A stretch of DNA of 54,704 nt from a virus. Lineage: Duplodnaviria; Caudoviricetes. The DNA is taken from the IMG/VR virus record IMGVR_UViG_3300030105_002351, positions 1 to 54,704 of that record; one strand, written 5' to 3'. This document shows positions 14,150-24,737 of the stretch, in pieces. The notes under the pieces were generated by a model. That model searched no databases. It saw nothing but the letters and a program-made list of their open reading frames with translations, and had not been told where the DNA came from. The translations under genes and the position numbers were made by a program. Within the stretch, counting starts at the first letter, position 1, and every line of letters begins with the position of its first letter.

Positions 14150-14201
14150 TTACTGTCCTAATAAAAAGGGATTTATGAATTCAGTAATATGAAAAACAAA
14201 C

Positions 14202-14331
14202 CTATACCTGGTACATACTTACTAGGTATATATACCTACTAGGTAAACAAAAAAAAATAAAAACTTAATAAGTAAACATAGGTAGGCACTTACTGGGTAT
14301 ATACCTAATAGAAAGTATGTACTAGGTATAG
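14202..14331. repeat. Long imperfect inverted repeat with nested palindromes
   Basis: 14202-14220 is the reverse complement of 14313-14331 with one mismatch; TAGGTATATATACCTA at 14223-14238 is a perfect palindrome. Confidence 0.8.
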
Positions 14332-14648
14332 AATCATACATGATGATAACATAATGCACCCCCTTCACAGCAAAAGCAACTGGTAAATTTGAAAAAAAAT
14401 AGGGTGGGGGGGCATAAAACATATTACCACTAAGGAAAAAACCAAAACAAACAAACAAAGCTAGCATAATGCTATATAAATAGGGGGGGTCTGTAAAAAG
14501 TAAGTGATATTACGAGCAGATTACTATGTATATATGATAGTCAAGTACTCGTTGCAAAAAAAGGGGGGTCGGGGTGGGCTTTTTATACCGAAAATCTGAG
14601 AAACTACCCGATACCCTATAAAACATATTCCTGAGAGCCAATACAGTC

Positions 14649-15149
14649 CTATTGATTGTCGGCTAATAGTAGCTGAGATAGACGAGCCTCGATGTCCTGC
14701 TGTATATCGCTCGATGTTCTGCTATCTGATCGCTGTTCTATAACCTCGGTGAAAATGCCTGCACTTTTACCCAGCAAACCCAGAGCCGATATCCTTGCGC
14801 TATCTGATTCAGCAGTGGTCGCTTCAAGCTTTAACTGTTTAAGCACGAAGTCCTTAACTGACTGCTCTCTTATGAGTTCCTGACGTGCTGTATCTGCCCT
14901 TTTACGCTCAATTCCTGCCTCTATCCTTAGTGAACACTTAGGGTTCGCTAATAGCTTACAGGCTTCGACCTCCACCCATTGCGGAACCTTACCCTTGCTA
15001 TTGAGTGATACGTCATAGATTTCAGCGTATGCCTGCTTGTTCGACTCATACTTATTCTGAATGATTGCCTGACAAAATGCCTCCTGCTTTGCTGTCAATT
15101 TATCATTGCTGACCAGCTTCAATTTACCTTTACCTTTTTTCTTATCCAT
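14649..15149 (-). CDS. Putative terminase small subunit
   Basis: LTAKQEAFC...AY...Y...A.KLLANPK HTH-like N-terminus, R.SAL.LLGK; upstream of terL; start placed at ATG 15149. Confidence 0.7.
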   Translation of the reverse strand: MDKKKGKGKLKLVSNDKLTAKQEAFCQAIIQNKYESNKQAYAEIYDVSLNSKGKVPQWVEVEACKLLANPKCSLRIEAGIERKRADTARQELIREQSVKDFVLKQLKLEATTAESDSARISALGLLGKSAGIFTEVIEQRSDSRTSSDIQQDIEARLSQLLLADNQ

Positions 15150-15240
15150 CGCTGATTCCAATTTATTATTTACTAGTAAAATATATTTCATGACCGCGTA
15201 ATTACTCACTTAATTATGGACTAATTGATCCTGATTTTTA

Positions 15241-15310
15241 ATGACTGCAATCAGCTATCAGGTATAATGTTTACTAAAATGTTTACATAGTGATTTTTAT
15301 CAAGTAAAGT
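15241..15310 (+). promoter_or_regulatory. Tandem sigma70-like promoters of the early operon
   Basis: ATGACT-N16-TATAAT (15241-15268) and TTTACA-N17-TAAAGT (15282-15310). Confidence 0.5.
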
Positions 15311-15334
15311 GGCTTTGCCACTTTCGGCAAACAA

Positions 15335-15350
15335 CGACCTCGGAGGTCAA
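15335..15350 (+). promoter_or_regulatory. SD-occluding hairpin motif, copy 1
   Basis: CGACCT-CGG-AGGTCAA, 4 nt before ATG 15355. Confidence 0.75.
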
Positions 15351-15354
15351 TATT

Positions 15355-15813
15355 ATGAGTAACTATTACGAAGTAACTGCAACACTGGATGACTATGACG
15401 AAGTGCTATTCGGTAGCTATATATTGGCTGAAGCGAAGTCTGAATTGTATGTGATTAAACCTAGTGCAAAGCATGATGGATATAAGAATATCCGCATAGA
15501 AAGTCGAGATTGTCCTGATGCACCTGAATATGTTCGGGTACCCTTGCAATCAGTAAAATTAGGTGGCGAGTTTAAGCTGAAGCCTGACGCTGAGAATGTA
15601 TACACTAAAGATTATTATAATCGATATGCTACTGATCAATATGGCGATTTACGACCTAGCTATACCTGTACAAGAATATGGGATTCTAACCACGAATTGT
15701 ATCTACTGCCTAAACGGAAAGTGTATGTTTTAACATCACAATGTAAGAACAATCTAATTGGCGGAACAGGAAATTATGAATATCAGAATGCCTTATTTAA
15801 TGTAAAAACATAA
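15355..15813 (+). CDS. Hypothetical early protein
   Basis: 152 aa with GGAGG RBS. Confidence 0.75.
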   Translation: MSNYYEVTATLDDYDEVLFGSYILAEAKSELYVIKPSAKHDGYKNIRIESRDCPDAPEYVRVPLQSVKLGGEFKLKPDAENVYTKDYYNRYATDQYGDLRPSYTCTRIWDSNHELYLLPKRKVYVLTSQCKNNLIGGTGNYEYQNALFNVKT

Positions 15814-15817
15814 ATTC

Positions 15818-15873
15818 TCACTCTGACGATCTGGATTAGTGATCTAGTGAAACCGACTTAGGTCGGTAAGTGA
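15818..15873 (+). ncRNA. Hammerhead ribozyme, type I (HH1)
   Basis: Stem I TCACT/AGTGA; core CTGACGA; stem II CTGGATT/GATCTAG; GAAA; stem III CCGAC/GTCGG; predicted cleavage after GUA at 15868. Confidence 0.9.
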
Positions 15874-15897
15874 AAACTAAAACAATGAGGTTATATT

Positions 15898-16143
15898 ATG
15901 AAATTAGCAACGAAGGAAAAAACTAGGATTGATACTTTTACAAGTGAATTATTCAGAAATTATACAGGCGTAAGTGATCAATGCAGTTTTGAGGAATTAA
16001 CTGGTTTAGCAATGGATTTCATTATTACGATACATAACGATTTTGAAGGTTTAAGTATAGATTATGATGCCATTGAATATGCTCATAATTATTTAGGGCA
16101 GGAAGGTTTAACGCAGGGTGACTTGCCAAACGACCTTAATTAA
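15898..16143 (+). CDS. Hypothetical early protein flanked by two hammerheads
   Basis: 81 aa with GAGG RBS. Confidence 0.75.
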   Translation: MKLATKEKTRIDTFTSELFRNYTGVSDQCSFEELTGLAMDFIITIHNDFEGLSIDYDAIEYAHNYLGQEGLTQGDLPNDLN

Positions 16144-16145
16144 AT

Positions 16146-16202
16146 TCACTCTGACGATCTGGGTTGGTGACCTAGTGAAACCCTCGCTAAGAGGGTAAGT
16201 GA
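16146..16202 (+). ncRNA. Hammerhead ribozyme, type I (HH2)
   Basis: Stem I TCACT/AGTGA; CTGACGA; stem II CTGGGTT/GACCTAG; GAAA; stem III CCCTC/GAGGG; predicted cleavage after GUA at 16197; compensatory changes relative to HH1. Confidence 0.92.
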
Positions 16203-16218
16203 TAACTTAAATATAAAA

Positions 16219-16234
16219 CGACCTTGGAGGTCAA
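16219..16234 (+). promoter_or_regulatory. SD-occluding hairpin motif, copy 2
   Basis: CGACCT-TGG-AGGTCAA, just before ATG 16237. Confidence 0.75.
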
Positions 16235-16236
16235 AA

Positions 16237-17295
16237 ATGAATACATCACCAAAAAAAGCAACGAAGATATTGGATAGCTGTTACAAGTCCAAAACTACCG
16301 CATTCTTAATTGGCGGTACAGGAATCGGCAAGTCTGAGATTGTCAAAACATTCGCAAAGAATAAGGCGAAGGAATTGGGCTTGAAGTTTACGCAGGACTG
16401 CATTGCACCGAATGATAGTCAATTCGGATATATAGATTTCAGGCTATCTCTGATGGAATCTATCGACCTTGGCGGACTGCCTATTGTGAACGATGACGGA
16501 ACCCAGAGCCGAGCATTTTTACCGAATCTGCCGACTTCAGGACAAGGTATTCTATTCTTGGACGAATTCGCTCAAGCGAATATGTCAGTAATGGCGATAG
16601 CAGGGCAATTGCTTCATGAAAAAAGAATCGGTGAGTACATTATGCCTGAAGGATGGACTGTCATTTGCGCAGGAAATCGCGCCTCCGATAGAGCAGGATC
16701 AATCGCTATTCCATCCCATGCCATCGGGCGAGTAGTAATGATTAATGTCGATGTGTCAACGCAGGACTGGCTCGACCATGCTCAATCAATTGGAGTGCAT
16801 GAGAACGTCCTAGGGTTCATAGGATTTCAGCAACAATATCTGAACAATTTTGATCCTAAAGTAAAAGACGCTCAAGCAAGCCCTCGATCATGGGTAAGAC
16901 TGAGCGATTTATTAAATACTGATCCTGTACCTGAGATCATTCAGGACTTATCCGCAGGATGTATCGGAGAGCAGGCGACCATTGAATTCATGAATTTTAT
17001 GTCATTGAAAAACGATGTACCTGATTTAAGGGAGATTGTCGCAGGTAAGGACGTAGCAATACCCGATCAGGGAGGCATAATGTATGCCACCATATGCGCT
17101 CTAATATCAGCTATCAAGCAAGCAGGCGATTCGACTGACGAATGGTTCGACAATGCGATGGCATATATCAATCGGTTTCCTTCGCCAGAATATGGAATCT
17201 TTTTTGTTAAGACGCTATCGAGTGTTGTACCTGAGATCGTCAACACGAAAACATATGGCGATTTCAAAGTAGCGAATCAGGACTTAGAATTTTAA
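16237..17295 (+). CDS. AAA+ ATPase (MoxR/dynein-related family)
   Basis: GGTGIGKS Walker A, DLGGLP, ILFLDEF Walker B, AGNR..D, SPRSW sensor 2. Confidence 0.88.
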   Translation: MNTSPKKATKILDSCYKSKTTAFLIGGTGIGKSEIVKTFAKNKAKELGLKFTQDCIAPNDSQFGYIDFRLSLMESIDLGGLPIVNDDGTQSRAFLPNLPTSGQGILFLDEFAQANMSVMAIAGQLLHEKRIGEYIMPEGWTVICAGNRASDRAGSIAIPSHAIGRVVMINVDVSTQDWLDHAQSIGVHENVLGFIGFQQQYLNNFDPKVKDAQASPRSWVRLSDLLNTDPVPEIIQDLSAGCIGEQATIEFMNFMSLKNDVPDLREIVAGKDVAIPDQGGIMYATICALISAIKQAGDSTDEWFDNAMAYINRFPSPEYGIFFVKTLSSVVPEIVNTKTYGDFKVANQDLEF

Positions 17296-17350
17296 TTGAT
17301 AAGCGAGGCGGATATATTTTATATACCAGTAAAATATATTTTTCCTCGCA

Positions 17351-17400
17351 GGGTTCTGCAAGTGATTACTTGCACTGATGAAGCTTCAAGCAGAAAACCC
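17351..17400 (+). ncRNA. Hammerhead ribozyme, type III (HH3)
   Basis: Stem III GGGTT/AACCC; predicted cleavage after UUC at 17356; stem I TGCAAGT/ACTTGCA; core CTGATGA; short stem II GCT/AGC; GAAA. Confidence 0.85.
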
Positions 17401-17414
17401 ATCAGAAATTATTA

Positions 17415-17430
17415 TGACCTAGGAGGTCAA
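17415..17430 (+). promoter_or_regulatory. SD-occluding hairpin motif, copy 3
   Basis: TGACCT-AGG-AGGTCAA, 3 nt before ATG 17434. Confidence 0.75.
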
Positions 17431-17433
17431 AAA

Positions 17434-18396
17434 ATGAATAGTAACTCAAACGCACTTTGCGAAAATGCAACATTGGTCAGGCTGACAATGAAGCATCCTA
17501 GCGGAATTAAATGCGACAAAAAAGCGCGATCTGAATGCGCTGAAGCAAACTCGATTTATAATGAAAAACTTGTCAGCGTATCTAAGCATATATTCGGCTT
17601 TGATATTAACAAGGAATTCAGGCGAATCGAGAATGGCATTCGTAATGATTTTTATTATGCGATGACTATGCCATGGGATGACGCGACAAACGATGGCGAT
17701 AAGCAAGCGTCTGGATGGAGGCTTTGCCCGAATAAGAATCTGGATAAACTTCAAATTGAAATCAACATGGCAGAAATTGCATTCAATAAAGAACGCGACC
17801 ATGCAGTCAAAGAATTCGATGCGAGGATTGCTAGTGCAAATGTTGAATTGGGTAGCTTGTTTAATATCAGCGACTACCCAACAAGAGATGAATTTGAAGC
17901 GAAATTCATTTTTGATTTTCAATTGCAAATGGTTCCATCTTATAACCACGATATAAGAATCAATTGTTCTGATGACTTTAAAAAGAAAATCGAGGATCAG
18001 GCGATAGCAAAACAAAATGCGAATATCAAAAATTCTTATAAGCAAGTAGTAGAAGGATTGATTGATAGCGTGTCGCATATTGCTGATAAAGTCGGAGAGT
18101 ATGATCCGAAAAATAAGCAAGGCGGATTTTTTAATAAATCAAGCTTCGATAATTTGAGAAAAACTATCTCAAATATTCCTGCAATCAATTCCGATATTCT
18201 TGGCGATGATCCTGCAATCACGAAGGCGCATCAATCACTTGTCAAAGTAATGTCGGGCATTACTAATGTCGAAGGATTACGCGAGGACAATCCAACGTCT
18301 ACCCAAAACCGCGAAGATTTATCCAAGGATTTAAAAGAATCTATCAGCGATCTAAAAGGCGGATTCATGGAAAATCTATATGGGGGCAAAAAATGA
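17434..18396 (+). CDS. Helical protein, possibly DUF3150-like
   Basis: Start reassigned to ATG 17434 after GGAGG; T.PW.D....G.RL.PN and LG.LFN..DYP motifs; between the AAA and VWA genes. Confidence 0.7.
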   Translation: MNSNSNALCENATLVRLTMKHPSGIKCDKKARSECAEANSIYNEKLVSVSKHIFGFDINKEFRRIENGIRNDFYYAMTMPWDDATNDGDKQASGWRLCPNKNLDKLQIEINMAEIAFNKERDHAVKEFDARIASANVELGSLFNISDYPTRDEFEAKFIFDFQLQMVPSYNHDIRINCSDDFKKKIEDQAIAKQNANIKNSYKQVVEGLIDSVSHIADKVGEYDPKNKQGGFFNKSSFDNLRKTISNIPAINSDILGDDPAITKAHQSLVKVMSGITNVEGLREDNPTSTQNREDLSKDLKESISDLKGGFMENLYGGKK

Positions 18397-19649
18397 ATAG
18401 CTTAGACAAATTGACGAAGGCGCGTTCAAAGCTGATGCGTAATAACTTAGGCATAGCGACCATGCTATTGACCTTGGATTTAATCGAATGCGATGCAAGC
18501 AAAACTGAAACGATGGCGACTGACGGCAGGCAGATATTTTTTCATCCTGATTTTGTCGAAGGTCATAGCATCCCAGAGTTGCAAGCCGTATTGATCCATG
18601 AAGCGATGCACGTCAGATTCAGCCATCCATTACGCAAAGGCAATCGGCATCATATACTCTGGAATTATGCGACTGATTACGTTATCAATAATCATTTGAG
18701 ATATGACCTAGGGATGCAATTGCCAGAAGGCGGATTATGGGATCGAAAATACATGAATATGACTGCTGAGAAGGTTTATCAGCAATTGGCTAACAGTCCT
18801 GACGACCTGAAGAAAACGGCAGAAAATGTGTCGAATGAATCAAGCGATGAATCAGGCGATACGTCAGACGATACGTCATGGGATGATTTACCTATGCCAT
18901 CTGGCGAAGTATTGGAACCTGTTGACGATGTCGGTAAGCCATTAGACGCGACTCAATTAGAGGAATTGCAAACTGCAATCAATCGAGCCGTATCTATGTC
19001 AGATAAGCTTGAAACATTCGGATCGAATCAGCAGTCAGGTCGAGGCGATGTGAAAACTGATTCTGATGAAATTGCGCCATGGCATGAGATTCTGCAAGAG
19101 CATATGGAATCGATCAGATCAAACGATGTTAAGAATTTCAAGCGATACAATAAGCAACACGCGCATCGCGGAATACATATGCCGACTAGAGATTTTGTAC
19201 CTGAAGGCGGAACCCTTGCTGTAGCAATTGACTCTAGTTGCTCGGTGAGTCAAGGCGAATTGGATATATATGCTAGCAATATTCAGAGCATTGCTGAATC
19301 GCTGAATCTATCAAAAATCATGATTTGTTATTGCGACACGATTGTTCATAAAAACAATCAGGGCGAATGGTGGGATGAACACGAGTTGATGGAAGGCGAT
19401 GACCTGAAGCTTGTCATAAGAGGCGGAGGCGGAACCGAATTTGATCCGCCATTCAATCTGTTAAATGACTATACCGAAAATCTTAGCGAGATAATGGCAT
19501 TTGTTTATTTTACTGATGGATATGCAAACGTCAGCCCATCAGTGGAACCCGACTTACCTGTGATATGGTGCTTGACTGCTAAATCGAGTTATAGCGATGG
19601 ACTGCCGTTCGGTGAGAAGGTTTATATCGATACAAGCAAGTTGATTTAA
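18393..19649 (+). CDS. Zincin metallopeptidase plus VWA-like domain protein (DUF2201-type)
   Basis: TMATDG, HEAMH (HExxH), WN.A.D..IN; MIDAS-like DSSCS, GGGGT.F, YFTDG. Confidence 0.85.
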   Translation: MNSLDKLTKARSKLMRNNLGIATMLLTLDLIECDASKTETMATDGRQIFFHPDFVEGHSIPELQAVLIHEAMHVRFSHPLRKGNRHHILWNYATDYVINNHLRYDLGMQLPEGGLWDRKYMNMTAEKVYQQLANSPDDLKKTAENVSNESSDESGDTSDDTSWDDLPMPSGEVLEPVDDVGKPLDATQLEELQTAINRAVSMSDKLETFGSNQQSGRGDVKTDSDEIAPWHEILQEHMESIRSNDVKNFKRYNKQHAHRGIHMPTRDFVPEGGTLAVAIDSSCSVSQGELDIYASNIQSIAESLNLSKIMICYCDTIVHKNNQGEWWDEHELMEGDDLKLVIRGGGGTEFDPPFNLLNDYTENLSEIMAFVYFTDGYANVSPSVEPDLPVIWCLTAKSSYSDGLPFGEKVYIDTSKLI

Positions 19650-19655
19650 AAGGGT

Positions 19656-19706
19656 GATTCTAGGGTATGCCATGGCATTACTTGCATGGCTAAACCCTCC
19701 AGAATC
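19656..19706 (+). other. Intergenic multi-segment hairpin
   Basis: GATTCT/AGAATC, AGGGT/ACCCT and GCCATG/CATGGC nested pairings. Confidence 0.6.
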
Positions 19707-19736
19707 AAATTCTACGAGGTCGAAATAGAGGCAATT

Positions 19737-19829
19737 ATGAATAAACTAGAAGATTTTATCGAATCACACCCATATATCTTTATAGCTGTGATTACTTTCA
19801 TATTATGTATTAATGATATTAAATTTTAA
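19737..19829 (+). CDS. 30-aa hydrophobic peptide
   Basis: GAGG RBS; MNKLEDFIESHPYIFIAVITFILCINDIKF; below the ORF-track cutoff. Confidence 0.5.
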   Translation: MNKLEDFIESHPYIFIAVITFILCINDIKF

Positions 19830-19841
19830 ATTGGAGTCATT

Positions 19842-20210
19842 ATGAATTATAAAAAAGATATATTTGAAAAAAGATTAAATGATTTCCTTGGTAGTGATTC
19901 ATTCAATAAAGATATGAATGACGATGACTTACATTGTGAAGTATTTAATAGTCAGGATTTTATCAGCGATCGAAATCAAGCAATCGAATTTTTGGGCAGT
20001 AAGACGTTCGACATTTTGGATTACGTTCGCACTTATGAAATAGATAATTTTGGAGAATTGAATACTGATATTTCAAACCCGATTAGACTGCTGAATATGT
20101 ATGCCTATATTATCGGTGAGGAAATCGTTGAAGATTATTTTGAAAAAAGAAATCGACATTTAAAAATTGAAAAACTTGGGGATTATATCTCTGCAATACA
20201 AGGAATTTAA
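19842..20210 (+). CDS. Hypothetical early protein (acidic)
   Basis: GGAG RBS; DLH.EVFN.D.I and N..AYIIGEE motifs. Confidence 0.7.
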   Translation: MNYKKDIFEKRLNDFLGSDSFNKDMNDDDLHCEVFNSQDFISDRNQAIEFLGSKTFDILDYVRTYEIDNFGELNTDISNPIRLLNMYAYIIGEEIVEDYFEKRNRHLKIEKLGDYISAIQGI

Positions 20211-20236
20211 TATTCCATAAGATAGTCGTAAAAATT

Positions 20237-20264
20237 AGAGGGTGCTTCGGCACTCTTTTTTTTT
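20237..20264 (+). terminator. Rho-independent terminator
   Basis: GGGTGC-TTCG-GCACTC followed by a T run. Confidence 0.88.
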
Positions 20265-20380
20265 GGAAAAATTTAATTGAAACTAAGATCAGAAATATAA
20301 TTTACTGGTAAATAAAAAATATTTTTTTTAGTTTCACATGAAACTTTTCTGTAGGTCTTCTTCATGATTTTTAATTAAGA

Positions 20381-20409
20381 TTGCATATTGCTAGCTTTAT
20401 TATTATTAT
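20381..20409 (+). promoter_or_regulatory. sigma70-like promoter
   Basis: TTGCAT-N17-TATTAT upstream of ORF 20464. Confidence 0.55.
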
Positions 20410-20463
20410 GTATAAGTTGGTCGATGTTTCAGATAGTCGAATTTACTTATGGAGTGATAACAA

Positions 20464-20856
20464 ATGAAAACTTATGAATTTATAGTGTCTTTAGATGTTG
20501 AAAAAAAACTGGTCGCACCCTCTTTGCTGGAGGCGACTCAAGGTTTAGAGAATAAACTCAATGATGCCGTTGACAATCAAAGGACAATTGATGATCTAAA
20601 GATAGTCGGTTTTAATTTTAATGAAAGACAAGTCAAAAAATTATGCGGATCAGATTTGCCAGATAATGATTTGATTCAAAAAATACAAGACTGGTTGCTA
20701 GATGAAGTTGAAAACTCAAAGGCTCCGTCTAATAGCACTGATCGTGTTGATGAAATCATAGCAGGCAGGCGAGAATGTGCTTTAACATTACTGCATTATA
20801 TTAATGGATTGATTGACGAAAAAATTAAATTACTAAAACAGGAGGAGGAAGCATGA
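20464..20856 (+). CDS. Hypothetical protein
   Basis: 130 aa, GGAG RBS. Confidence 0.7.
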   Translation: MKTYEFIVSLDVEKKLVAPSLLEATQGLENKLNDAVDNQRTIDDLKIVGFNFNERQVKKLCGSDLPDNDLIQKIQDWLLDEVENSKAPSNSTDRVDEIIAGRRECALTLLHYINGLIDEKIKLLKQEEEA

Positions 20857-21107
20857 AAATTGTAGCGTGGAAGTTAGTGGCGTTTGATGAAAATGACAAT
20901 GAGATTTCGGTGGAACCAAGTAATTCTGTAGCAAGATATAGGGTATCTTTTATGCCACATGAAACTTTGCAATACGATTATGTTGTAGAAGCAAAGAACG
21001 AAGATGAAGCACAAGACAAAGCTAAAGAACAACTGATGTGGGCGATTGGTAGTGATGGTGCAAAAGATTGGGAATGTAGCAATATAGAGGAGAGTGAAGA
21101 TGAGTAA
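20853..21107 (+). CDS. Hypothetical acidic protein
   Basis: GGAGG RBS, ATGA overlap, VEAKNEDEA motif. Confidence 0.7.
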   Translation: MKIVAWKLVAFDENDNEISVEPSNSVARYRVSFMPHETLQYDYVVEAKNEDEAQDKAKEQLMWAIGSDGAKDWECSNIEESEDE

Positions 21108-21270
21108 AGATGAAGTTAGTTTACAGAGTTTTATGGACACCTTAGATGTGGAGTCAGATGATTGTACTGAAGAAAATGTTTTTCTTCTTGAAAGGTTACA
21201 AGCGTTTAAAGACGAAAGAGAAGGTAAAAAAGTCTGGAGAGAGAGATTACCACCACGATCATACGAGTAA
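21100..21270 (+). CDS. 56-aa hypothetical protein
   Basis: GGAG RBS; MSKDEVSLQSFMDTL...PPRSYE; ends just before a terminator. Confidence 0.55.
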   Translation: MSKDEVSLQSFMDTLDVESDDCTEENVFLLERLQAFKDEREGKKVWRERLPPRSYE

Positions 21271-21294
21271 TTTCTGTTAAGATATATTATAAGT

Positions 21295-21320
21295 AAGAGT
21301 GCTTCGGCACTCTTTTTTTT
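21295..21320 (+). terminator. Rho-independent terminator
   Basis: AAGAGTGC-TTCG-GCACTCTT plus T run; near-identical to the terminator at 20237. Confidence 0.88.
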
Positions 21321-21654
21321 GGGTGGGATTTATTTTTGGATGCACAGCCAAATTATCAATTACCAGTAAATAATATATTTTGATTGAGCTGCAACAAAGA
21401 TTTATGTTGTTTCAATAAAATATTTTAGATATAAAAATTTTTCCCACCAATATTTCTGATGACATAAATTTGCATCTGTTTGAGGTAATAACTAGAAATA
21501 CATCAAAAAACGAAGCCATAGAATTCGATTTAAGCGACTTTATGACCTATGCCGTTGTGATTGTATACCCAAAAAATACCCACTTTTAATGATCAATGGC
21601 AACTAGGAAATTTAAAAAACTGGTAAATAAAAAATATTTTTAATATACCAGCAA

Positions 21655-21711
21655 ACACTACATCTTGTGTCGTTTTGTAAATAAATTAAATAATAGCACT
21701 ATATGTAGTTA
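21655..21711. promoter_or_regulatory. Tandem NrdR-box-like sites
   Basis: ACACTACATCTTGTGT (21655) and GCACTATATGTAGTTA (21696) resemble the consensus acaCwAtATaTwGtgt; 41 bp apart. Confidence 0.6.
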
Positions 21712-21716
21712 TATTA

Positions 21717-21744
21717 TTGCATTCTGCAATCAGGATGTTATGAT
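21717..21744 (+). promoter_or_regulatory. sigma70-like promoter of the putative sRNA
   Basis: TTGCAT-N16-TATGAT with an extended -10 TG. Confidence 0.65.
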
Positions 21745-21749
21745 AACTG

Positions 21750-21841
21750 CAACAGAGAAAATTAAATTTCTTTGTTGACCTCCTAAGTCGAGAACCGAGG
21801 GGTGGGTTTTTTTCAATTTTAGCCTGCCCCTCTTTTCTTTT
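21750..21841 (+). ncRNA. Putative trans-acting anti-Shine-Dalgarno small RNA
   Basis: 5' hairpin 21750-21777; segment TTGACCTCCTAAGTCG matches the reverse complement of the three early RBS motifs at 14/16; terminator hairpin 21797-21832 plus U-tract; no start codon in the unit. Confidence 0.65.
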
Positions 21842-21958
21842 CAAAAAATTCTCTCAATAGTAGTAGTAATAGTAATATATCAAGTTAGTCGATGATGTAT
21901 TTCTTTTTGCTATCAGAATGCTTATAATGTATCTTGTTATTAAAAATGGATAACCGAT

Positions 21959-22333
21959 ATGTACGCTGTAATAAGACATACTTTCTCTGTAAAAATACCA
22001 GAACCAACCAGTTTAGTTAGTCGAAAGTCTACTGCTAATTGGATTCATAAGTGTTGGCTGTTTAAAAAAGAGTTAGACGCAATAACATTTGCTATTAGTT
22101 TGTTAGACGATCCATTGATTAAAGCTAATGATTATTTATTTGAAAGTGCTATCCATCAACTGAAAGAAAACAGATTTTATCAGCTAGGCAGAGAGTCTAT
22201 AGCTGTAGCAGAAGTAGAAGATTCTCCTGATATTTTATATCAAACAGATATTGAACTTACTGAAAAAGATATTGAACTTACTGAACAAGAAATTGGAGAA
22301 CTGATCAATGATAGAAAAAAACTTATTCATTAG
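21959..22333 (+). CDS. Hypothetical protein
   Basis: 124 aa; upstream TTGCTA-N17-TATCTT candidate promoter; 21-nt duplication encoding DIELTE twice. Confidence 0.7.
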   Translation: MYAVIRHTFSVKIPEPTSLVSRKSTANWIHKCWLFKKELDAITFAISLLDDPLIKANDYLFESAIHQLKENRFYQLGRESIAVAEVEDSPDILYQTDIELTEKDIELTEQEIGELINDRKKLIH

Positions 22334-22526
22334 GTGTTCGGAAGAAACTTACAAGCTAGCCCATGCTTTAGCAAAATCTGAATCTAGGTCTTTGAATAAA
22401 CAAGTTATTCACATGATCCATGCTGAATCAAAGCTAAGAAATATTAACTTACCAAAAACTAAAAAAGTAGACTCTATTGGCTTGAAAGGGCTTGTTCAAA
22501 CAAGAACACAGGGGTCATCTGACTGA
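22308..22526 (+). CDS. Arc-like ribbon-helix-helix DNA-binding protein
   Basis: LFIRCSEE.Y.....LAK.E.RSLN.Q..H.I pattern. Confidence 0.75.
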   Translation: MIEKNLFIRCSEETYKLAHALAKSESRSLNKQVIHMIHAESKLRNINLPKTKKVDSIGLKGLVQTRTQGSSD

Positions 22527-22977
22527 CATAAAAGTGCGTTAATAAAGCATTGGCACAGTCACTCATAATCTTTCTTTCTTTCTTTTCTACAATCTTAGGA
22601 TTGTTGGTCATAATATTCCAAAAAATTCTTTCATGTTCAGAGCCGCATATCTTAATTATTATTCTTTGTGGCTCTAAGAGAACTATACTTTTATCTTGAT
22701 GATTATGAAATTTACTGGTAAATAATATTTTCTGTAAATCGGGAGAACTAACGAAGGCTCCTGATTTTGATATTATGGACAGGTATTTATTGCAAGCTAA
22801 ATGTTGTCTTGGTGATAACTGTTTGTTTGATAGCATAATATCAATTATATGTTGGTCGGTAACAATGGCGCGACCTATACCTTTAACCTCAGTAATTTTT
22901 ACTGAATGTTTGTCGTGCAATCTTTTTGAACCAATGTCATTCAGCTTCATAAGCAACCGACATATCAGAATTCCCAA
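22474..22977 (-). CDS. Hypothetical protein downstream of primase-helicase
   Basis: 167-aa ORF; true start may be an internal Met. Confidence 0.6.
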   Translation of the reverse strand: MGILICRLLMKLNDIGSKRLHDKHSVKITEVKGIGRAIVTDQHIIDIMLSNKQLSPRQHLACNKYLSIISKSGAFVSSPDLQKILFTSKFHNHQDKSIVLLEPQRIIIKICGSEHERIFWNIMTNNPKIVEKKERKIMSDCANALLTHFYVSQMTPVFLFEQALSSQ

Positions 22978-24737
22978 TCATAATTGTCCTCCACTTTCTC
23001 TGCTTCCGAGTAGCGATTGTTCAATGGATTAAAAGTCAATTTACAACTTCCTGTTTTTCCCATCCAAGTCCACCGCTGTTTCCAACAGTGAACTCCAACA
23101 CTATCCTCGCCTCTATAAACTGTCAACCCCATATCTGACTTCGAGAAAAATGCCATGCTCCCAGAAATATCAACTCCTGTAACCAGATTTTTCTTACCAT
23201 CTCGCATTTGTGGTTTGTTTGGGTGGGCTATAAAAAAACATAAGACATCATATTTTTTGCAATGCAACTGAACCTTAGTAAGCATTGAAGAAATTGCATC
23301 AGTTTCTAAACCTTTATGATTACTTTCGATAAAATTATAGGGATCAATTACCAGAATCTTGCATCCGTATCGCATCACCGCTTGTGCTGATCGACTTAAA
23401 ATTGCTTCTATTGTAGGGCTTCCACCATCTTGGTAATCTTGAAATAGAAAATGCTCGGATATGAATTGTTGAGATATATCTTTTTCGTCTTGCGACATTC
23501 TCTGATTGTTACCTTCAAAAAACGGCTTCCCGATATAGCATTGTGCCAACTGAATTGCATGATAGGTAGGGGGTTTTTCAAAACTACATATATTAGCTTT
23601 CCATCCGTAATTCTTAGCGACATTGATTAATATTTGATCAATAAACGCAGATTTTCCATCTCCAGGATATCCTGTAACTACACATAAATTACCTGTTTGT
23701 AAATTAAATAACTGGTCAACAGAATCATATCCTGTAGAAACCCCTTGTGGTTTTCCCCTCTCATATAGCTTCTGAAAGTCATCTGAGTAGTAGTCTATAT
23801 TGTGTAAACCATGCAAAGGAACAGGTGTTGCAGATAATATGCTTTGGCGAACTGCCTCTGAGCCTCTTGCAACTAATAATTCGTTTGCATCCTTATACCC
23901 CTCACCCCAATCTACATTGTAGCACCTAGCTTTATCTAGCCTTCTTGACAATTCATCCGCTAAAATTTTTCCGTTGGCATCTACATCAACTGCCAAAATT
24001 ATTCGTGTAATTTTTTCAAAAACATTCCTGTCTTCCCAGATATATTTGAAGCGACCATCTTCCTTTGGATCAACTTTTAAATTTTCTGTAACTTTATTGG
24101 GTGCGCCATTTGGTACTGAGTAAACAATAACATTCTGTAATCCCTGAAATGCCTCAGTAATACTTAGAGTATCTATTTCACCTTCGGTGATAACAATTGT
24201 ATCAGCCATCGTGGGTAGACTTTCATCTATAATTCTTCCACCCCATAAACGAGTCGCATTATTATCCCACCAGAACTCCTTTTTACTACTAGCTGTACGA
24301 TATTTTACTGCAACTGTTTCGTTATTTTCAGTGAATGGAAAACCTATTACTGGTTTATTATTTTTTGTGCCAAGAATACATCCGCTTTTCTCCGCTGTTA
24401 TAATGCTTATACCTCTTTTCTCTAACCATTTTTGTGCCTCACCTTTGTCGGGGGTTGGAAACTTTATAATTTTTTTAGATTGTTGTTTTATTGGCGAGGG
24501 TATTCTGTTCATTTTCATTCCTTGAGAACGACTTATCGCACCATTAACACCGCAATGATGGCAATGGTAAATGATTGATTCGTTATTTATATTTACAGAT
24601 AGTGGTGTATCTAATTTGTTTTTCCTTTGGTCTTGGCATACAGAACAGCTAATTTTATATTGTCCTGCTGACATATGGTTGGTTTTTGAATTTGTATGAA
24701 TGTGACTTTTTATCGAGTTTTTTTCTTGACTCAACAT
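22965..24737 (-). CDS. DNA primase-helicase (T7 gp4/Twinkle-like)
   Basis: CSVC...CHHC zinc finger; ITEGEID, SVPNGA, D.D..G, KDANE Toprim motifs; TGYPGDGKS Walker A; VIDPYN; AHP.K. Confidence 0.92.
   Translation of the reverse strand: MLSQEKNSIKSHIHTNSKTNHMSAGQYKISCSVCQDQRKNKLDTPLSVNINNESIIYHCHHCGVNGAISRSQGMKMNRIPSPIKQQSKKIIKFPTPDKGEAQKWLEKRGISIITAEKSGCILGTKNNKPVIGFPFTENNETVAVKYRTASSKKEFWWDNNATRLWGGRIIDESLPTMADTIVITEGEIDTLSITEAFQGLQNVIVYSVPNGAPNKVTENLKVDPKEDGRFKYIWEDRNVFEKITRIILAVDVDANGKILADELSRRLDKARCYNVDWGEGYKDANELLVARGSEAVRQSILSATPVPLHGLHNIDYYSDDFQKLYERGKPQGVSTGYDSVDQLFNLQTGNLCVVTGYPGDGKSAFIDQILINVAKNYGWKANICSFEKPPTYHAIQLAQCYIGKPFFEGNNQRMSQDEKDISQQFISEHFLFQDYQDGGSPTIEAILSRSAQAVMRYGCKILVIDPYNFIESNHKGLETDAISSMLTKVQLHCKKYDVLCFFIAHPNKPQMRDGKKNLVTGVDISGSMAFFSKSDMGLTVYRGEDSVGVHCWKQRWTWMGKTGSCKLTFNPLNNRYSEAEKVEDNYDWEF

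What the first reader, a model, noticed from the sequence alone, without database searches (positions are those of the whole stretch)
15335..21841. Candidate RNA-level control circuit on the early operon: ribozyme processing, shared RBS hairpins, antisense sRNA and NrdR-like boxes
Seen: the first three intergenic gaps of the plus-strand operon each hold a hammerhead. Three of the first four genes start with the same 16-nt SD hairpin. A separate promoter-terminator unit at 21717-21841 carries the antisense of that motif, directly after two NrdR-box-like sites. Inference: the transcript self-cleaves into segments whose RBS lies 20-60 nt behind a new 5' end, and one sRNA, possibly tied to host nucleotide status, tunes their translation together. 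I do not know of this combination being described, but could not search the literature.
Basis: partly seen in the sequence, partly recalled or inferred. Interest (0 to 1): 0.95.

Follow-up and report, generated by a model that had tools for sequence, protein, structure and literature searches.

The report
Ribozyme-cut phage operon with anti-ribosome-site RNA
An uncultured marine phage and its many relatives appear to cut their first operon into single-gene messages with hammerhead ribozymes, put each ribosome-binding site in a small hairpin, and encode a small RNA complementary to those sites whose promoter carries binding sites for host sensors of DNA replication and DNA building blocks.

Summary
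All four observed elements are in the window at the stated places, and comparison shows they are family traits, not chance.

**Hammerheads.** My descriptor finds 3 in the window and 46 in 16 related genomes, all on the operon strand; shuffles give 0.015 per window. Most carry a non-Watson-Crick U.U or A.A next to the core. Rfam reports none.

**Ribosome-site hairpins.** Each ribozyme is followed 13-58 nt later by a ribosome site, usually inside a small hairpin whose stem covaries.

**Small RNA.** The "antisense unit" belongs to a small-RNA family found in 71 of 78 loci. It has a promoter, a 5' hairpin, an invariant unpaired CCUCC and a terminator. Its flanks co-vary with the ribosome sites and leaders of the upstream operon.

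**Promoter sites.** The promoter carries NrdR box pairs in 26 of 71 units; the window has all six conserved positions in both boxes and a 25-bp spacer. It carries two or more DnaA boxes in 58 of 71.

**Not shown.** Cleavage, expression, repression and NrdR binding are untested; no RNA run holds this DNA. Ribozyme-punctuated phage operons were described in 2011; the combination is, as far as I searched, new. The scan noted a CCUCC small RNA in another phage before (e1-5832697).

The parts
15241..15268 (+). Promoter-like site of the plus-strand operon (ATGACT-16-TATAAT)
   Evidence: 10 of 12 consensus positions, the joint best score (with one minus-strand site) in 14000-23500. A consensus match only.
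15306..15324 (+). 8-bp hairpin near the predicted 5' end of the operon transcript
   Evidence: Read. The flanking sequence is conserved in L001, L002 and L004. Its role is inferred.
15336..15348 (+). SD hairpin 1 (GACCU-CGG-AGGUC) before gene 1 (15355-15813)
   Evidence: pattern; 0.02 expected. One search gives MFE -5.6 kcal/mol for the 23-nt site.
15818..15880 (+). Hammerhead A, type I. Stem I 15818-22/15869-73, core 15823-29, stem II with U.U closure, stem III hairpin, predicted cut 15868|15869. Loop II (15836-40) can pair with 15876-80.
   Evidence: Among 8 distinct copies in relatives, stem II, stem III and the loop II/3' tail pairing all covary.
15898..16143 (+). Gene 2 (81 aa, no family match), bracketed by hammerheads A and B
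16146..16210 (+). Hammerhead B, type I, U.U closure, predicted cut 16197|16198
   Evidence: Relative to A it has a compensatory A-U to G-C change in stem II and a wholly different stem III.
16220..16232 (+). SD hairpin 2 before the AAA ATPase gene (16237-17295)
   Evidence: ATPase assignment: phrog_1297, E 3e-72.
17303..17349 (+). Long hairpin just before hammerhead C. Its loop holds the TATACCAGTAAA motif.
   Evidence: Read; motif. Role unknown.
17351..17400 (+). Hammerhead C, type III, A.A closure, 3-bp stem II, predicted cut 17356|17357
   Evidence: A covariance model built only from 14 relatives' type III elements ranks it first in the whole window with filters off (25.0 bits, E 1.9e-4). 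With default filters it is missed.
17416..17428 (+). SD hairpin 3 before gene 4 (17434-18396). The DUF2201 metallopeptidase/VWA gene follows at 18393-19649.
   Evidence: This site shares the longest unbroken pairing with the window's sRNA (11 nt, tied with the site at 15342) and, by my reading, pairs at 14 of 15 positions.
21655..21670 (.). NrdR-like box 1 (14 of 16 to the recalled consensus; 6 of 6 conserved positions)
   Evidence: Conserved positions taken from PMC13584703.
21696..21711 (.). NrdR-like box 2 (6 of 6 conserved positions). Spacer to box 1 is 25 bp; it ends 5 nt before the -35.
   Evidence: Spacers of 24-27 bp bind NrdR in vitro (PMC12051234).
21717..21744 (+). sRNA promoter: TTGCAT-16-TATGAT, with the -35 inside the palindrome TTGCA-N3-TGCAA
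   Evidence: Read; not listed by the generic scan. The same promoter architecture is found in 71 of 71 units of relatives, and the palindrome in 50 of 71.
21751..21841 (+). Predicted sRNA of about 90 nt: 10-bp 5' hairpin, open GACCUCCUAAGUC (CCUCC at 21779-21783), 12-bp terminator hairpin, U-rich tail
   Evidence: P unpaired of CCUCC 0.84; z -4.59. for the minus strand; no minus-strand ORF.

Best explanation
This is one instance of an RNA-level expression architecture shared by a large group of uncultured marine phages of about 55-60 kb.

**Step 1 (structure shown, catalysis inferred).** The plus-strand operon next to the terminase genes is transcribed as one RNA. Hammerhead ribozymes at gene junctions cut it.
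- Type I elements stay with the upstream fragment.
- Type III elements stay at the 5' end of the downstream message.
- So each cistron gets a defined 5'-OH end 20-80 nt before its start codon.
- Most of these ribozymes carry U.U (or A.A) in place of the G10.1-C11.1 pair.

**Step 2 (shown as structure).** Each processed message presents its GGAGG in a 4-6-bp hairpin. The first bases of the ribosome site lie in the loop and the last in the 3' arm.

**Step 3 (complementarity and co-variation shown, effect inferred).** A small RNA with its own promoter and terminator lies downstream of the operon.
- It exposes CCUCC between two hairpins and pairs with these ribosome sites.
- In the window the pairing runs over 9-11 contiguous bases at three genes.
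- In many relatives there is a second box in the leader as well.
- It would block translation of the operon, above all of the AAA ATPase and the gene after it.

**Step 4 (sites shown, binding inferred).** The sRNA promoter is read out by host regulators that report replication and dNTP status: NrdR in the window, DnaA or both in relatives. The sRNA would therefore appear once phage DNA synthesis changes those signals, and would act as a replication-coupled shut-off of the first operon.
For: **Hammerheads.**
- 47 descriptor hits, 46 after dropping one overlapping duplicate, in 16 of 16 genomes. All lie on the operon strand upstream of the sRNA. Shuffles give 0.015 per window.
- There are 42 distinct elements. 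Position N7 is free (C 9, U 25, A 5, G 3) and every stem position shows 3-5 pair types.
- On 14 type III elements of relatives, 13 of 15 pairs change on both sides. The covariation score is 1.04, against 0.32 shuffled (0 of 500 as high) and 0.06-0.13 when the partner is slid.
- A model built from relatives alone finds HH-C as the top hit in the window.
- By my reading, 14 of the 15 distinct genomes (G003 repeats G001) have a hammerhead in the gap before gene 4.

**Ribosome sites.**
- 46 of 46 hammerheads are followed by an SD-like site at +13 to +58 nt.
- Operon sites fold more stably than other GGAGG sites: -2.90 (n=103) against -1.66 kcal/mol (n=111), Mann-Whitney p 8e-6.
- The stems differ between genes and genomes.

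**sRNA.**
- The unit is present in 71 of 78 loci.
- CCUCC is unpaired with mean probability 0.70, against 0.41 for the whole RNA; it exceeds 0.5 in 40 of 56 distinct units.
- Only 6 of 56 have a minus-strand ORF of 30 aa or more.

**Targeting.**
- The two bases 5' of GGAGG complement the two bases after CCUCC in 58 of 109 operon sites. The figure is 8 of 114 for other sites of the same genomes, and 83 of 850 for sRNAs of other flank types.
- A second perfect complement of 9 nt or more is found in 9 of 109 operon leaders. It is found in 0 of 114 other leaders, 21 of 1501 cross-genome pairs and 0 of 109 with the sRNA reversed. The matched sequences differ between genomes.
- An sRNA's own pairing exceeds that of other genomes' sRNAs in 16 of 16 genomes, and exceeds its pairing at non-operon sites in 16 of 16.

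**Promoter wiring.**
- NrdR pairs with 15-16 bp spacers occur in 26 of 71 units and two or more DnaA boxes in 58 of 71.
- Either kind of site abuts the -35.
- The window's boxes meet the published sequence and spacer rules.
- The phage has no ATP-cone and no RNR large subunit of its own.
Against: **No expression or cleavage data.** 20 of 20 listed runs that hold this DNA are DNA runs.

**Ribozyme doubts.**
- No Rfam hammerhead model reports any element. This is weak evidence, because relatives with a canonical G-C closure are missed too and my own model needs filters off.
- The U.U/A.A closure breaks a rule that Perreault 2011 used to reject candidates. It removes G10.1, which I recall is part of a metal site. 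These ribozymes may be slow or conditional.

**Limits of the counts.**
- The descriptor requires the core and minimum stems, so full pairing in the inner stem positions and an intact core are by construction.
- The genomes are related, so the p-values overstate independence.

**Weak points in the window itself.**
- Only 1 of 6 operon sites matches the dinucleotide rule. Its complementarity lies on the other flank.
- Its sRNA lacks the second hairpin and has no close relatives.
- It has no DnaA box within 1 mismatch between 21271 and 21959.

**Exceptions among relatives.**
- G009 matches the dinucleotide rule at 0 of 12 sites, and G008's own 5'-flank pairing is no better than that of other sRNA types.
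- L024 has hammerheads but no sRNA unit.

**NrdR pair significance.** The six-position rule alone has a 5% chance rate in the window.

**Host unknown.** The host, and so its NrdR, DnaA and ribosome tail, is unknown.
Confidence: 0.55

Rival explanations
1. All four elements are real but do not form one circuit. The hammerheads only process the message. The hairpins only set translation level or stabilise 5' ends. The CCUCC RNA acts on other targets, such as host messages or the nearby replication genes. Its match to the operon's ribosome sites reflects a shared ribosome-site dialect.
For: - CCUCC pairs with any GGAGG site. The extra pairing is only about 2-4 bases on average.
- Some non-operon sites score well, for example the primase-helicase site in G001 with 11 contiguous pairs.
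- G009 and the window fit the 5'-flank rule poorly.
- L003, L013 and L024 have the hammerheads without hairpins or an sRNA in the DNA available.
Against: - Operon sites fit an sRNA of the same genome better than other GGAGG sites do in 16 of 16 genomes.
- Second-site complements of 9-12 nt occur only in operon leaders (9 of 109 against 0 of 114). They use different sequences in different genomes.
- L024 lacks hairpins and sRNA together, which is co-absence.
Confidence: 0.22
2. The promoter-CCUCC-terminator unit is part of the phage replication origin. DnaA and NrdR sites plus a short transcript beside the primase-helicase gene would prime or activate replication, as promoter transcripts do at the T7 primary origin (recalled). 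The CCUCC would be incidental or serve another contact.
For: - Two or more DnaA boxes lie directly upstream of the promoter in 58 of 71 units.
- The unit lies within 1-3 kb of a T7 gp4-like primase-helicase (Toprim plus DnaB_C).
- It sits in an AT-rich gene-free stretch that holds other palindromes.
Against: - A primer or activator RNA does not explain an invariant, unpaired CCUCC in every unit found (71 of 71) with co-varying flanks and second-site complements to operon leaders.
- The window has no DnaA box at the unit.
- The two roles are not exclusive.
Confidence: 0.1
3. The ribosome-site hairpins are operators for a phage or host RNA-binding protein, a translational repressor like the MS2 coat protein or T4 RegA (recalled). 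The protein, not the sRNA, co-regulates the operon.
For: - One hairpin shape with a conserved loop (UGGA or NGG) and a free stem recurs at many genes. That pattern is typical of protein-recognised hairpins.
- Gene 1, gene 2 and gene 4 have no family match and could encode such a protein.
Against: - No RNA-binding domain was found in the operon proteins scanned.
- It leaves the sRNA's co-variation unexplained.
- It is not exclusive with the main reading.
Confidence: 0.08

Closest known systems
Clustered hammerhead ribozymes flanking genes in prophages (Perreault et al. 2011, PMC3088659; passages and sections 7 and 9 read)
   Same: - Several hammerheads of mixed type sit at gene junctions of a phage polycistronic unit, and processing into single-gene messages was proposed.
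- A loop II pseudoknot serves as the tertiary contact.
- Slow core variants in phages were suggested to be conditional.
   Different: - Here 27 of 42 distinct elements have U.U or A.A at 10.1/11.1, a mispair that paper's screen rejected.
- The elements are tied to a fixed downstream ribosome-site hairpin and to a matching sRNA.
- Rfam models do not report them.
RiboJ, the synthetic ribozyme insulator (PMC6206723; passages read)
   Same: A hammerhead-type ribozyme is followed by a short hairpin just upstream of the ribosome site. This gives every message a standard 5' end whatever lies upstream.
   Different: - RiboJ is engineered from a plant satellite ribozyme. This is a natural phage arrangement.
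- Here the hairpin contains part of the ribosome site itself, and an sRNA is complementary to it.
Phage antisense RNAs that mask ribosome sites of phage genes: P1/P7 c4 RNA on the ant operon and P22 sar RNA (recalled, no paper read). Also lambda PreS, which acts on host dnaN (bioRxiv 10.1101/2024.10.31.621285; abstract and section 17 read).
   Same: A small phage-encoded RNA pairs at or near ribosome sites and changes translation as part of the phage programme.
   Different: - c4 and sar are, as I recall, tied to immunity regions of temperate phages and act on one operon site.
- Here one trans-acting RNA matches several ribozyme-delimited cistrons.
- Its promoter carries host NrdR or DnaA sites.
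NrdR operators of bacterial ribonucleotide reductase promoters (PMC13584703 and PMC12051234; passages read)
   Same: - Two 16-bp partly palindromic boxes with C4, A6, A8, T9, T11 and G13.
- Spacer of 15-16 bp in relatives or 25 bp in the window.
- Placement at or beside the -35.
   Different: - The controlled gene is a phage small RNA, not an RNR operon, and the phage has no RNR.
- A search for 'NrdR box' with 'phage' listed 3 papers. By title and abstract start none concerns a phage promoter.
C-rich anti-Shine-Dalgarno sRNAs of bacteria (RsaE/RoxS, the cuckoo family; recalled), and the scan's earlier CCUCC sRNA in another phage (e1-5832697)
   Same: An exposed C-rich seed pairs with ribosome sites, with flanks giving specificity.
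   Different: There is no sequence or structural relation. No Rfam family matches the unit, even at E up to 10.

Membership tests
Hammerhead ribozyme (Rfam clan of RF00008, RF00163 and others) | Core C3-U4-G5-A6-N7-G8-A9, G12-A13-A14, the A15.1-U16.1 pair, and H17 (not G) at the cut site | tested here: met
   All three window elements have the full core. Across 42 distinct elements N7 varies freely, and H17 is A 29, C 12, U 1. The core was a search criterion, so it is met by construction in relatives.
Hammerhead ribozyme (Rfam clan of RF00008, RF00163 and others) | Three helices around the core, supported by covariation | tested here: met
   13 of 15 pairs have double changes on 14 relatives; score 1.04 against 0.32 shuffled and 0.13 or less slid. 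Window type I copies: stem III is wholly different between A and B, and stem II has an A-U to G-C change.
Hammerhead ribozyme (Rfam clan of RF00008, RF00163 and others) | Watson-Crick pair (usually G-C) at 10.1-11.1 next to the core; a mispair here was a rejection rule in PMC3088659 | tested here: not met
   U.U in A and B, A.A in C. Family-wide: U.U 25, A.A 2, G-C 9, G.U 1, extra U 5 of 42. Orthologous elements switch between G-C and U.U (G013:6098 against G012:3307).
Hammerhead ribozyme (Rfam clan of RF00008, RF00163 and others) | Tertiary contact between helices I and II (loop-loop or pseudoknot) | tested here: inconclusive
   Type I copies: loop II UU[A/G]GU can pair with AC[U/C]AA 3-4 nt after stem I. 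UUAGU goes with ACUAA and UUGGU with ACCAA, but some copies need a bulged U (8 copies). Type III elements: loops I and II are conserved in sequence. Contact not modelled.
Hammerhead ribozyme (Rfam clan of RF00008, RF00163 and others) | Match to the curated covariance models | tested here: not met
   No hit at gathering score or at E up to 10. Control: canonical-closure relatives are also unreported, so the blank reflects sensitivity.
Hammerhead ribozyme (Rfam clan of RF00008, RF00163 and others) | Site-specific self-cleavage | not testable with these tools
   No RNA run holds the DNA. Needs in vitro transcription.
NrdR operator | Two 16-bp boxes with conserved C4, A6, A8, T9, T11, G13 | tested here: met
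   6 of 6 in both boxes. Rule taken from PMC13584703.
NrdR operator | Spacer of 15-16 bp (or 24-27 bp) between boxes | tested here: met
   25 bp in the window. 15-16 bp in 26 relatives. Binding ranges from PMC12051234.
NrdR operator | Lies in the promoter of a ribonucleotide reductase operon | tested here: not met
   It precedes the sRNA promoter. There is no RNR large subunit or ATP-cone in the 54.7-kb record.
NrdR operator | Bound by dATP/ATP-loaded NrdR of the host | not testable with these tools
   Host unknown.
Trans-acting base-pairing sRNA | Own promoter and terminator, and non-coding | tested here: met
   Promoter motif in 71 of 71 units and terminator in 71 of 78 loci. Window fold z -4.59 on +. 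50 of 56 units have no minus-strand ORF of 30 aa or more.
Trans-acting base-pairing sRNA | Accessible seed complementary to targets, with co-variation | tested here: met
   counts are given in the For line.
Trans-acting base-pairing sRNA | Expressed, and changes target expression | not testable with these tools
   No RNA holder listed.

The most novel reading that the evidence does not exclude
A widespread group of marine phages runs its first operon as a natural 'insulated parts' design.
- Every cistron is cut free by a hammerhead and carries a standard ribosome-site hairpin.
- One phage sRNA then switches the whole set off. Its promoter has borrowed the host's own replication and dNTP sensors (NrdR, DnaA). 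The switch would be a replication-coupled timer built from RNA, with a host RNR repressor recruited to control a phage non-coding RNA.
Probability: 0.35. Interest if true: 0.9.

Novelty: new variant of a known kind. Interest (0 to 1): 0.82.

Why it matters
**Function of phage hammerheads.** The role of the many hammerheads in phages has been open since 2011. Here they sit in a fixed module: stop codon, ribozyme, about 18 nt, ribosome-site hairpin, start codon. The module repeats up to five times per operon in at least 16 genomes. That makes the role directly testable and links it to translation control.

**Missed ribozymes.** The U.U/A.A closure shows that current ribozyme screens and Rfam filters miss a whole phage lineage of hammerheads.

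**A phage sRNA with predicted targets.** The sRNA family would be one of the few phage-encoded sRNAs with predicted phage targets backed by co-variation in trans.

**NrdR and DnaA beyond their usual genes.** NrdR or DnaA sites on the sRNA promoter would extend the NrdR regulon beyond RNR genes. They suggest how a lytic phage could time gene expression by the host's replication state.

**Ecology and engineering.**
- 20 DNA runs labelled marine or seawater metagenome, from 11 studies, hold part or all of the stretch. Two of the 20 may be the window's own source sample.
- The module is a natural counterpart of the RiboJ insulator used in synthetic biology.

Tried and rejected
**Rfam searches.** I ran the whole window at gathering score, 8 kb and 451 nt at E up to 10, RF00163 and RF00008 through the genome search, seven relatives' loci, and L140:1600-6300 at E up to 10. 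No hammerhead and no sRNA family was reported. I reject this as evidence against the ribozymes, because canonical-closure relatives and my own model with default filters are missed as well.

**Searches for relatives and host.**
- DNA similarity to GenBank phages: none.
- The 124-aa protein in GenBank phages: none.
- TerL relatives (DSL-LC04, 023Pt_psg01, Pelagibacter phages HTVC027P and HTVC023P; 52-59% aa). HTVC027P has a different replication module and gave no lead on the host.
- Genome contigs with alignment A1: 11 pattern matches, none a relative. The host is still unknown.
- The ATPase protein in viral contigs found only two near-identical contigs.
- The window's exact sRNA seed in viral contigs (53 stretches) and metagenome contigs (3 stretches): all in unrelated contexts.

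**Expression.** No RNA holder is listed among the 20 runs. Read laying was not used, because DNA contigs cannot show ends.

**Alignment and model attempts.**
- MAFFT plus RNAalifold on untrimmed type III elements recovered only stem I. I replaced it with trimmed alignments and a structure I supplied.
- An alignment of distant type I elements was too ragged to build a model from. No type I model was built.

**Weak measures.**
- RNA duplex energies allow long interior loops and are noisy. I give them little weight.
- The pattern GACYTNGGAGGTC in five relatives found nothing, because their hairpins differ in length.

**Rejected readings.**
- The minus strand of the unit as the ribosome site of a gene.
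- A phage-encoded NrdR or RNR as the reason for the boxes.

**Supplements.** Supplementary files of papers were closed. Dataset S1 and Figures S4-S6 of PMC3088659 (hammerhead alignments and core variants) could show whether a U.U closure was seen before.

**Literature on novelty.** Searches listed no paper on this combination or on NrdR boxes at a phage promoter. PMC11300833 (passages) describes an active pseudoknot hammerhead whose helix II substitute is capped by A:A and G:A pairs. That is a precedent for non-Watson-Crick ends, but the passage does not say which end faces the core.

Full report
**What the window is.** It is a 54,704-base IMG/VR virus record, estimated 93% complete, with 34.6% G+C. 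20 DNA runs labelled marine or seawater metagenome, from 11 studies, hold part or all of the 15200-22000 stretch (18 of them at least half its sampled words; two may be its source sample); no RNA run does. The region 15335-21841 lies between the divergently transcribed terminase genes and a T7 gp4-like primase-helicase gene. The small terminase subunit is at 14649-15209 on the minus strand and the large subunit at 12653-14149. The primase-helicase is at 22965-24737 on the minus strand. The plus-strand operon encodes:
- two small proteins with no family match;
- an AAA ATPase (16237-17295; phrog_1297, E 3e-72);
- a 320-aa protein with no match;
- a DUF2201 metallopeptidase/VWA protein (18393-19649).

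**Checking the hammerheads.** By reading the sequence and by a simple scan, the first three intergenic gaps each hold CUGANGA...GAAA flanked by three helices.
- HH-A (15818-15880) and HH-B (16146-16210) are type I, meaning helix I is open. Their predicted cuts are at 15868|15869 and 16197|16198.
- HH-C (17351-17400) is type III, with its predicted cut at 17356|17357.
- I wrote a stricter descriptor requiring the full core, H17 not G, stems I and III of at least 4 pairs (stem III counting the 15.1-16.1 pair) and stem II of at least 3, and type I or III topology. It finds exactly these three in the window, none on the minus strand. 200 second-order Markov shuffles of the window give a mean of 0.015 hits.
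- All three depart from the textbook in one respect. The pair next to the core in helix II (10.1-11.1, usually G-C) is U.U in A and B and A.A in C.

**Why the Rfam blanks say little.** Rfam reports nothing at gathering score or at E up to 10, even on a 451-nt stretch. I do not read this as evidence against the ribozymes, for two reasons.
- Relatives' elements with a canonical G-C closure are also unreported.
- A covariance model that I built from 14 relatives' type III elements, none from the window, misses HH-C with default filters. With filters off it ranks HH-C first in the whole window, both strands (25.0 bits, E 1.9e-4).

**Relatives of the hammerheads.**
- Exact-pattern scans of IMG/VR gave eight distinct copies of the window's type I element in five contigs. 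In these, stem III is replaced wholesale by four different helices. Stem II shows an A-U to G-C exchange. N7 is C or U. Loop II (UUAGU or UUGGU) goes with a matching ACUAA or ACCAA 3-4 nt after helix I, although some copies need a bulged U. This looks like the loop II pseudoknot that Perreault et al. describe as common (PMC3088659, section 7).
- Through the primase-helicase protein and an alignment of the 124-aa protein encoded at 21959-22333 (114 relatives, 80 kept), I reached more distant relatives. I fetched 15 full records.
- The descriptor finds 47 hits in the 16 genomes, 46 after removing one overlapping duplicate. There are one to five per genome, every one on the operon strand upstream of the small-RNA unit.
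- Among 42 distinct elements the helix II closure is U.U in 25, A.A in 2, G-C in 9, G.U in 1, and a single extra U before a G-C pair in 5.
- Orthologous elements switch between G-C and U.U (G013:6098 against G012:3307).
- On a clean alignment of 14 type III elements, 13 of 15 pairs change on both sides. The covariation score is 1.04, against 0.32 for shuffled partners (0 of 500 as high) and 0.06-0.13 for slid partners.
- Caveat: the descriptor demands the core and minimum stems, so full pairing of the inner positions is by construction. The variety of pair types is not.
- By my reading, 14 of the 15 distinct genomes (G003 repeats G001) carry a hammerhead in the gap before the homologue of gene 4.

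**The ribosome-site hairpins.**
- GACCTNGGAGGTC occurs three times on the plus strand (15336, 16220, 17416), against 0.02 expected. The near-identical contigs L001, L002 and L004 keep it, with the loop base swapped between genes.
- More distant relatives do not have this sequence but do have the same shape. Short stems of varied sequence enclose (C)UUGGAGG or AUGGAGG, for example ATTCTTGGAGGAAT, GACCTTGGAGGGTC, GCCCTTGGAGGGGT, TACTTGGAGGTA, AGAATGGAGGTTCT and TTGCGGAGGTGCAA.
- In the minimum-energy folds, the first bases of GGAGG lie in the loop and the last in the 3' arm.
- Operon sites fold more stably than other GGAGG sites of the same genomes: -2.90 against -1.66 kcal/mol, n = 103 and 111 distinct sites, p 8e-6. 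The sites are not independent.
- Each of the 46 hammerheads is followed by an SD-like site at +13 to +58 nt, mostly 14-25.
- The repeated module is therefore stop codon, ribozyme, short linker, ribosome-site hairpin, start codon.

**The antisense unit.**
- The window's unit starts with a promoter, TTGCAT-16-TATGAT, at 21717-21744.
- After it come a 10-bp 5' hairpin, an open GACCUCCUAAGUC, and a 12-bp terminator hairpin with a U-rich tail.
- It folds at -33.8 kcal/mol (z -4.59) on the plus strand, against z -1.62 on the minus strand.
- The generic scan listed neither the promoter nor the terminator, so on the window alone this would be a weak call.

**The sRNA family in relatives.**
- In the 1,500 nt upstream of the 124-aa gene, 71 of 78 loci with enough DNA carry a unit of the same build. 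The 78 are 77 relatives plus the window; 3 further loci were too short.
- The build is a promoter, one or more 5' hairpins, CCUCC, usually a second hairpin, then a terminator with a run of six or more T.
- Five of the seven failures fail only my strict terminator rule: the window and L047, L048, L050 and L051, whose CCUCC unit ends in a hairpin without a T run. L109 has the promoter and CCUCC but no clear terminator hairpin. L031 has no unit.
- CCUCC is invariant, while the 5' hairpin sequences are unrelated between subfamilies.
- Its mean probability of being unpaired is 0.70, against 0.41 for the whole RNA. It exceeds 0.5 in 40 of 56 distinct units, and is 0.84 in the window.
- On the minus strand, 21 of 56 units have no start codon after GGAGG, and only 6 of 56 have an ORF of 30 aa or more. 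A minus-strand gene is therefore rejected.

**Does the sRNA match the operon?**
- In the window, contiguous pairing (G.U allowed) runs 11 nt at gene 4, 11 nt at gene 1 and 9 nt at the ATPase gene. The best site elsewhere in the window reaches 7.
- Across 16 genomes, pairing beyond GGAGG is greater for a genome's own sRNA than for other genomes' sRNAs on the same operon sites in 16 of 16. It is greater on operon sites than on other GGAGG sites in 16 of 16 (Watson-Crick only).
- For 15 genomes (a duplicate dropped), the two bases 5' of GGAGG complement the two bases after CCUCC in 58 of 109 operon sites. The figure is 8 of 114 for other sites, and 83 of 850 when sRNAs of another flank type are used. 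For example, CCUCC-AA goes with UU-GGAGG and CCUCC-AU with AU-GGAGG.
- In many relatives there is a second site. The loop region of the sRNA's second hairpin complements a box in the leader between ribozyme and ribosome site.
- Perfect complements of 9 nt or more occur in 9 of 109 operon leaders. They occur in 0 of 114 other leaders, 21 of 1501 cross-genome pairs, and 0 of 109 with the sRNA reversed.
- The matched words differ by genome: 12 and 11 nt in G009, 10 and 9 in G006, 10 in G007, 9 in G010, G011 and G004, and 10 in G013. That is co-variation in trans.
- The best-matched genes are repeatedly the ATPase and the gene after it.

**Results against the targeting reading.**
- The window fits the dinucleotide rule at only 1 of 6 sites.
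- G009 fits it at 0 of 12 sites.
- G008's own 5'-flank pairing is no better than that of other sRNA types.
- The genomes are related, so the tests overstate independence.
- The window's own variant has no close relative in the viral or metagenome collections.
- L024, the nearest relative for that region (75% helicase identity), has U.U hammerheads but neither hairpins nor the unit. I read that as co-absence, but it is a single case.

**The NrdR-like boxes.**
- According to PMC13584703 (passages), an NrdR site is two partly palindromic 16-bp boxes 15-16 bp apart. Positions C4, A6, A8, T9, T11 and G13 are highly conserved.
- PMC12051234 (passages) shows that four NrdR proteins also bind sites with 24-27-bp spacers.
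- The window's boxes (21655-21670, 21696-21711) have 6 of 6 conserved positions each and a 25-bp spacer. Box 2 ends 5 nt before the -35.
- By the six-position rule alone the window has two such pairs. The other, 34462/34505, lies inside a long ORF. 5 of 100 shuffles have at least one pair, so the window alone is only suggestive.
- 26 of the 71 units in relatives have a pair at the same promoter with 15- or 16-bp spacers. Some boxes are identical in 15 or 16 of 16 positions to the consensus box used in those papers.
- 58 of 71 units have two or more DnaA boxes (within one mismatch of the 9-mer, which I recalled) directly upstream of the -35.
- Where DnaA boxes are absent, the NrdR pair abuts the -35 (5-8 nt). 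Where both are present, the NrdR pair lies further upstream.
- The window has no DnaA box at the unit.
- The phage encodes no ATP-cone protein and no RNR large subunit. The boxes would therefore be read by a host protein, and they do not serve an RNR gene.

**How it most likely works.** I commit at about 0.55 to the chain given under Best explanation.
- Ribozymes cut the operon RNA at gene junctions.
- Each message carries a standard hairpin-borne ribosome site.
- The sRNA pairs with those sites, and in relatives with a leader box, to shut translation.
- The sRNA's promoter listens to host NrdR and DnaA, so the shut-off follows the onset of phage DNA synthesis.

What is shown: the structures, their positions, their conservation, the complementarity and its co-variation, and the operator-like sites. 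What is inferred: catalysis, transcription, the sign of regulation, protein binding and the timing logic. The rivals are independent elements without a circuit, an origin-linked transcript, and a protein-recognised hairpin. None is excluded, and two of them are compatible with the main reading.

**Comparison with what is known.**
- Clustered hammerheads that flank genes in prophages, and the idea that they process long phage RNAs into single-gene messages, were published in 2011 (PMC3088659). That paper's screen rejected candidates with a mispair at 10.1-11.1, which is the majority state here.
- The ribozyme-plus-hairpin-before-RBS layout is what synthetic biologists built as RiboJ (PMC6206723).
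- Phage antisense RNAs that mask ribosome sites are known (P1 c4 and P22 sar, recalled). A lambda sRNA acting on host dnaN was reported recently.
- NrdR operators are known only at RNR and a few other bacterial promoters. My search for 'NrdR box' with 'phage' listed three papers, none about a phage promoter by title and abstract start.
- I found no paper on the combination.
- The scan itself has noted CCUCC sRNAs in other phages (e1-5832697, not re-tested here).

**Verdict.** Each part is a new variant or member of a known kind. The assembled system, and the recruitment of NrdR and DnaA sites to a phage sRNA promoter, appear new.

Noticed in passing
window 19650-19737: The fourth gap, after the VWA gene, has no hammerhead by my descriptor. 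It has a long imperfect hairpin (-27.3 kcal/mol, z -2.6) at the junction where several relatives carry a type III hammerhead. It may be an RNase III-type processing site. The next small gene probably starts at ATG 19738 rather than 19686.
   Followed up: partly
window 15169, 17322, 20301, 21359, 22711, 30244, 47734; palindrome 21620-21651: The 12-bp near-palindrome TTTACYRGTAAA occurs 7 times within one mismatch, against 1.17 expected. Several sites are intergenic, as read. A 32-bp palindrome built from it lies just before NrdR box 1. Relatives have the same motif beside their DnaA boxes. It could be the operator of an unknown regulator or a phage promoter element.
   Followed up: partly
window 21717-21731 and relatives' sRNA promoters: The -35 of the sRNA promoter lies in a palindrome, TTGCA-N3-TGCAA, kept in 50 of 71 units. 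This suggests a further dimeric regulator at this promoter.
   Followed up: no
window 20237-20258 and 21295-21314: Two intrinsic terminators share one stem-loop sequence and close two successive plus-strand gene blocks.
   Followed up: no
window 34462-34520: A second pair of six-position NrdR-like boxes (spacer 27) lies inside the 2562-aa ORF. It is probably chance.
   Followed up: no
L024 (IMG/VR contig, 12,770 nt): This is the closest relative for the helicase region (75% aa). It has two type I U.U hammerheads, but plain ribosome sites after them and no CCUCC unit. A DNA-methyltransferase-like ORF (my reading of its sequence; no family scan was run) lies where the unit would be.
   Followed up: partly
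window 15818-15873 and 16146-16202: In both type I hammerheads, loop II contains RGUGA, the same word as the 3' strand of helix I. The 5' strand UCACU could therefore pair with either (read). This is a possible inactive alternative fold.
   Followed up: no
relatives G002, G009, G011, G014, G015: Five distinct hammerheads have a single extra U between A9 and a normal G10.1-C11.1 pair. I recall this variation from viroid hammerheads.
   Followed up: no
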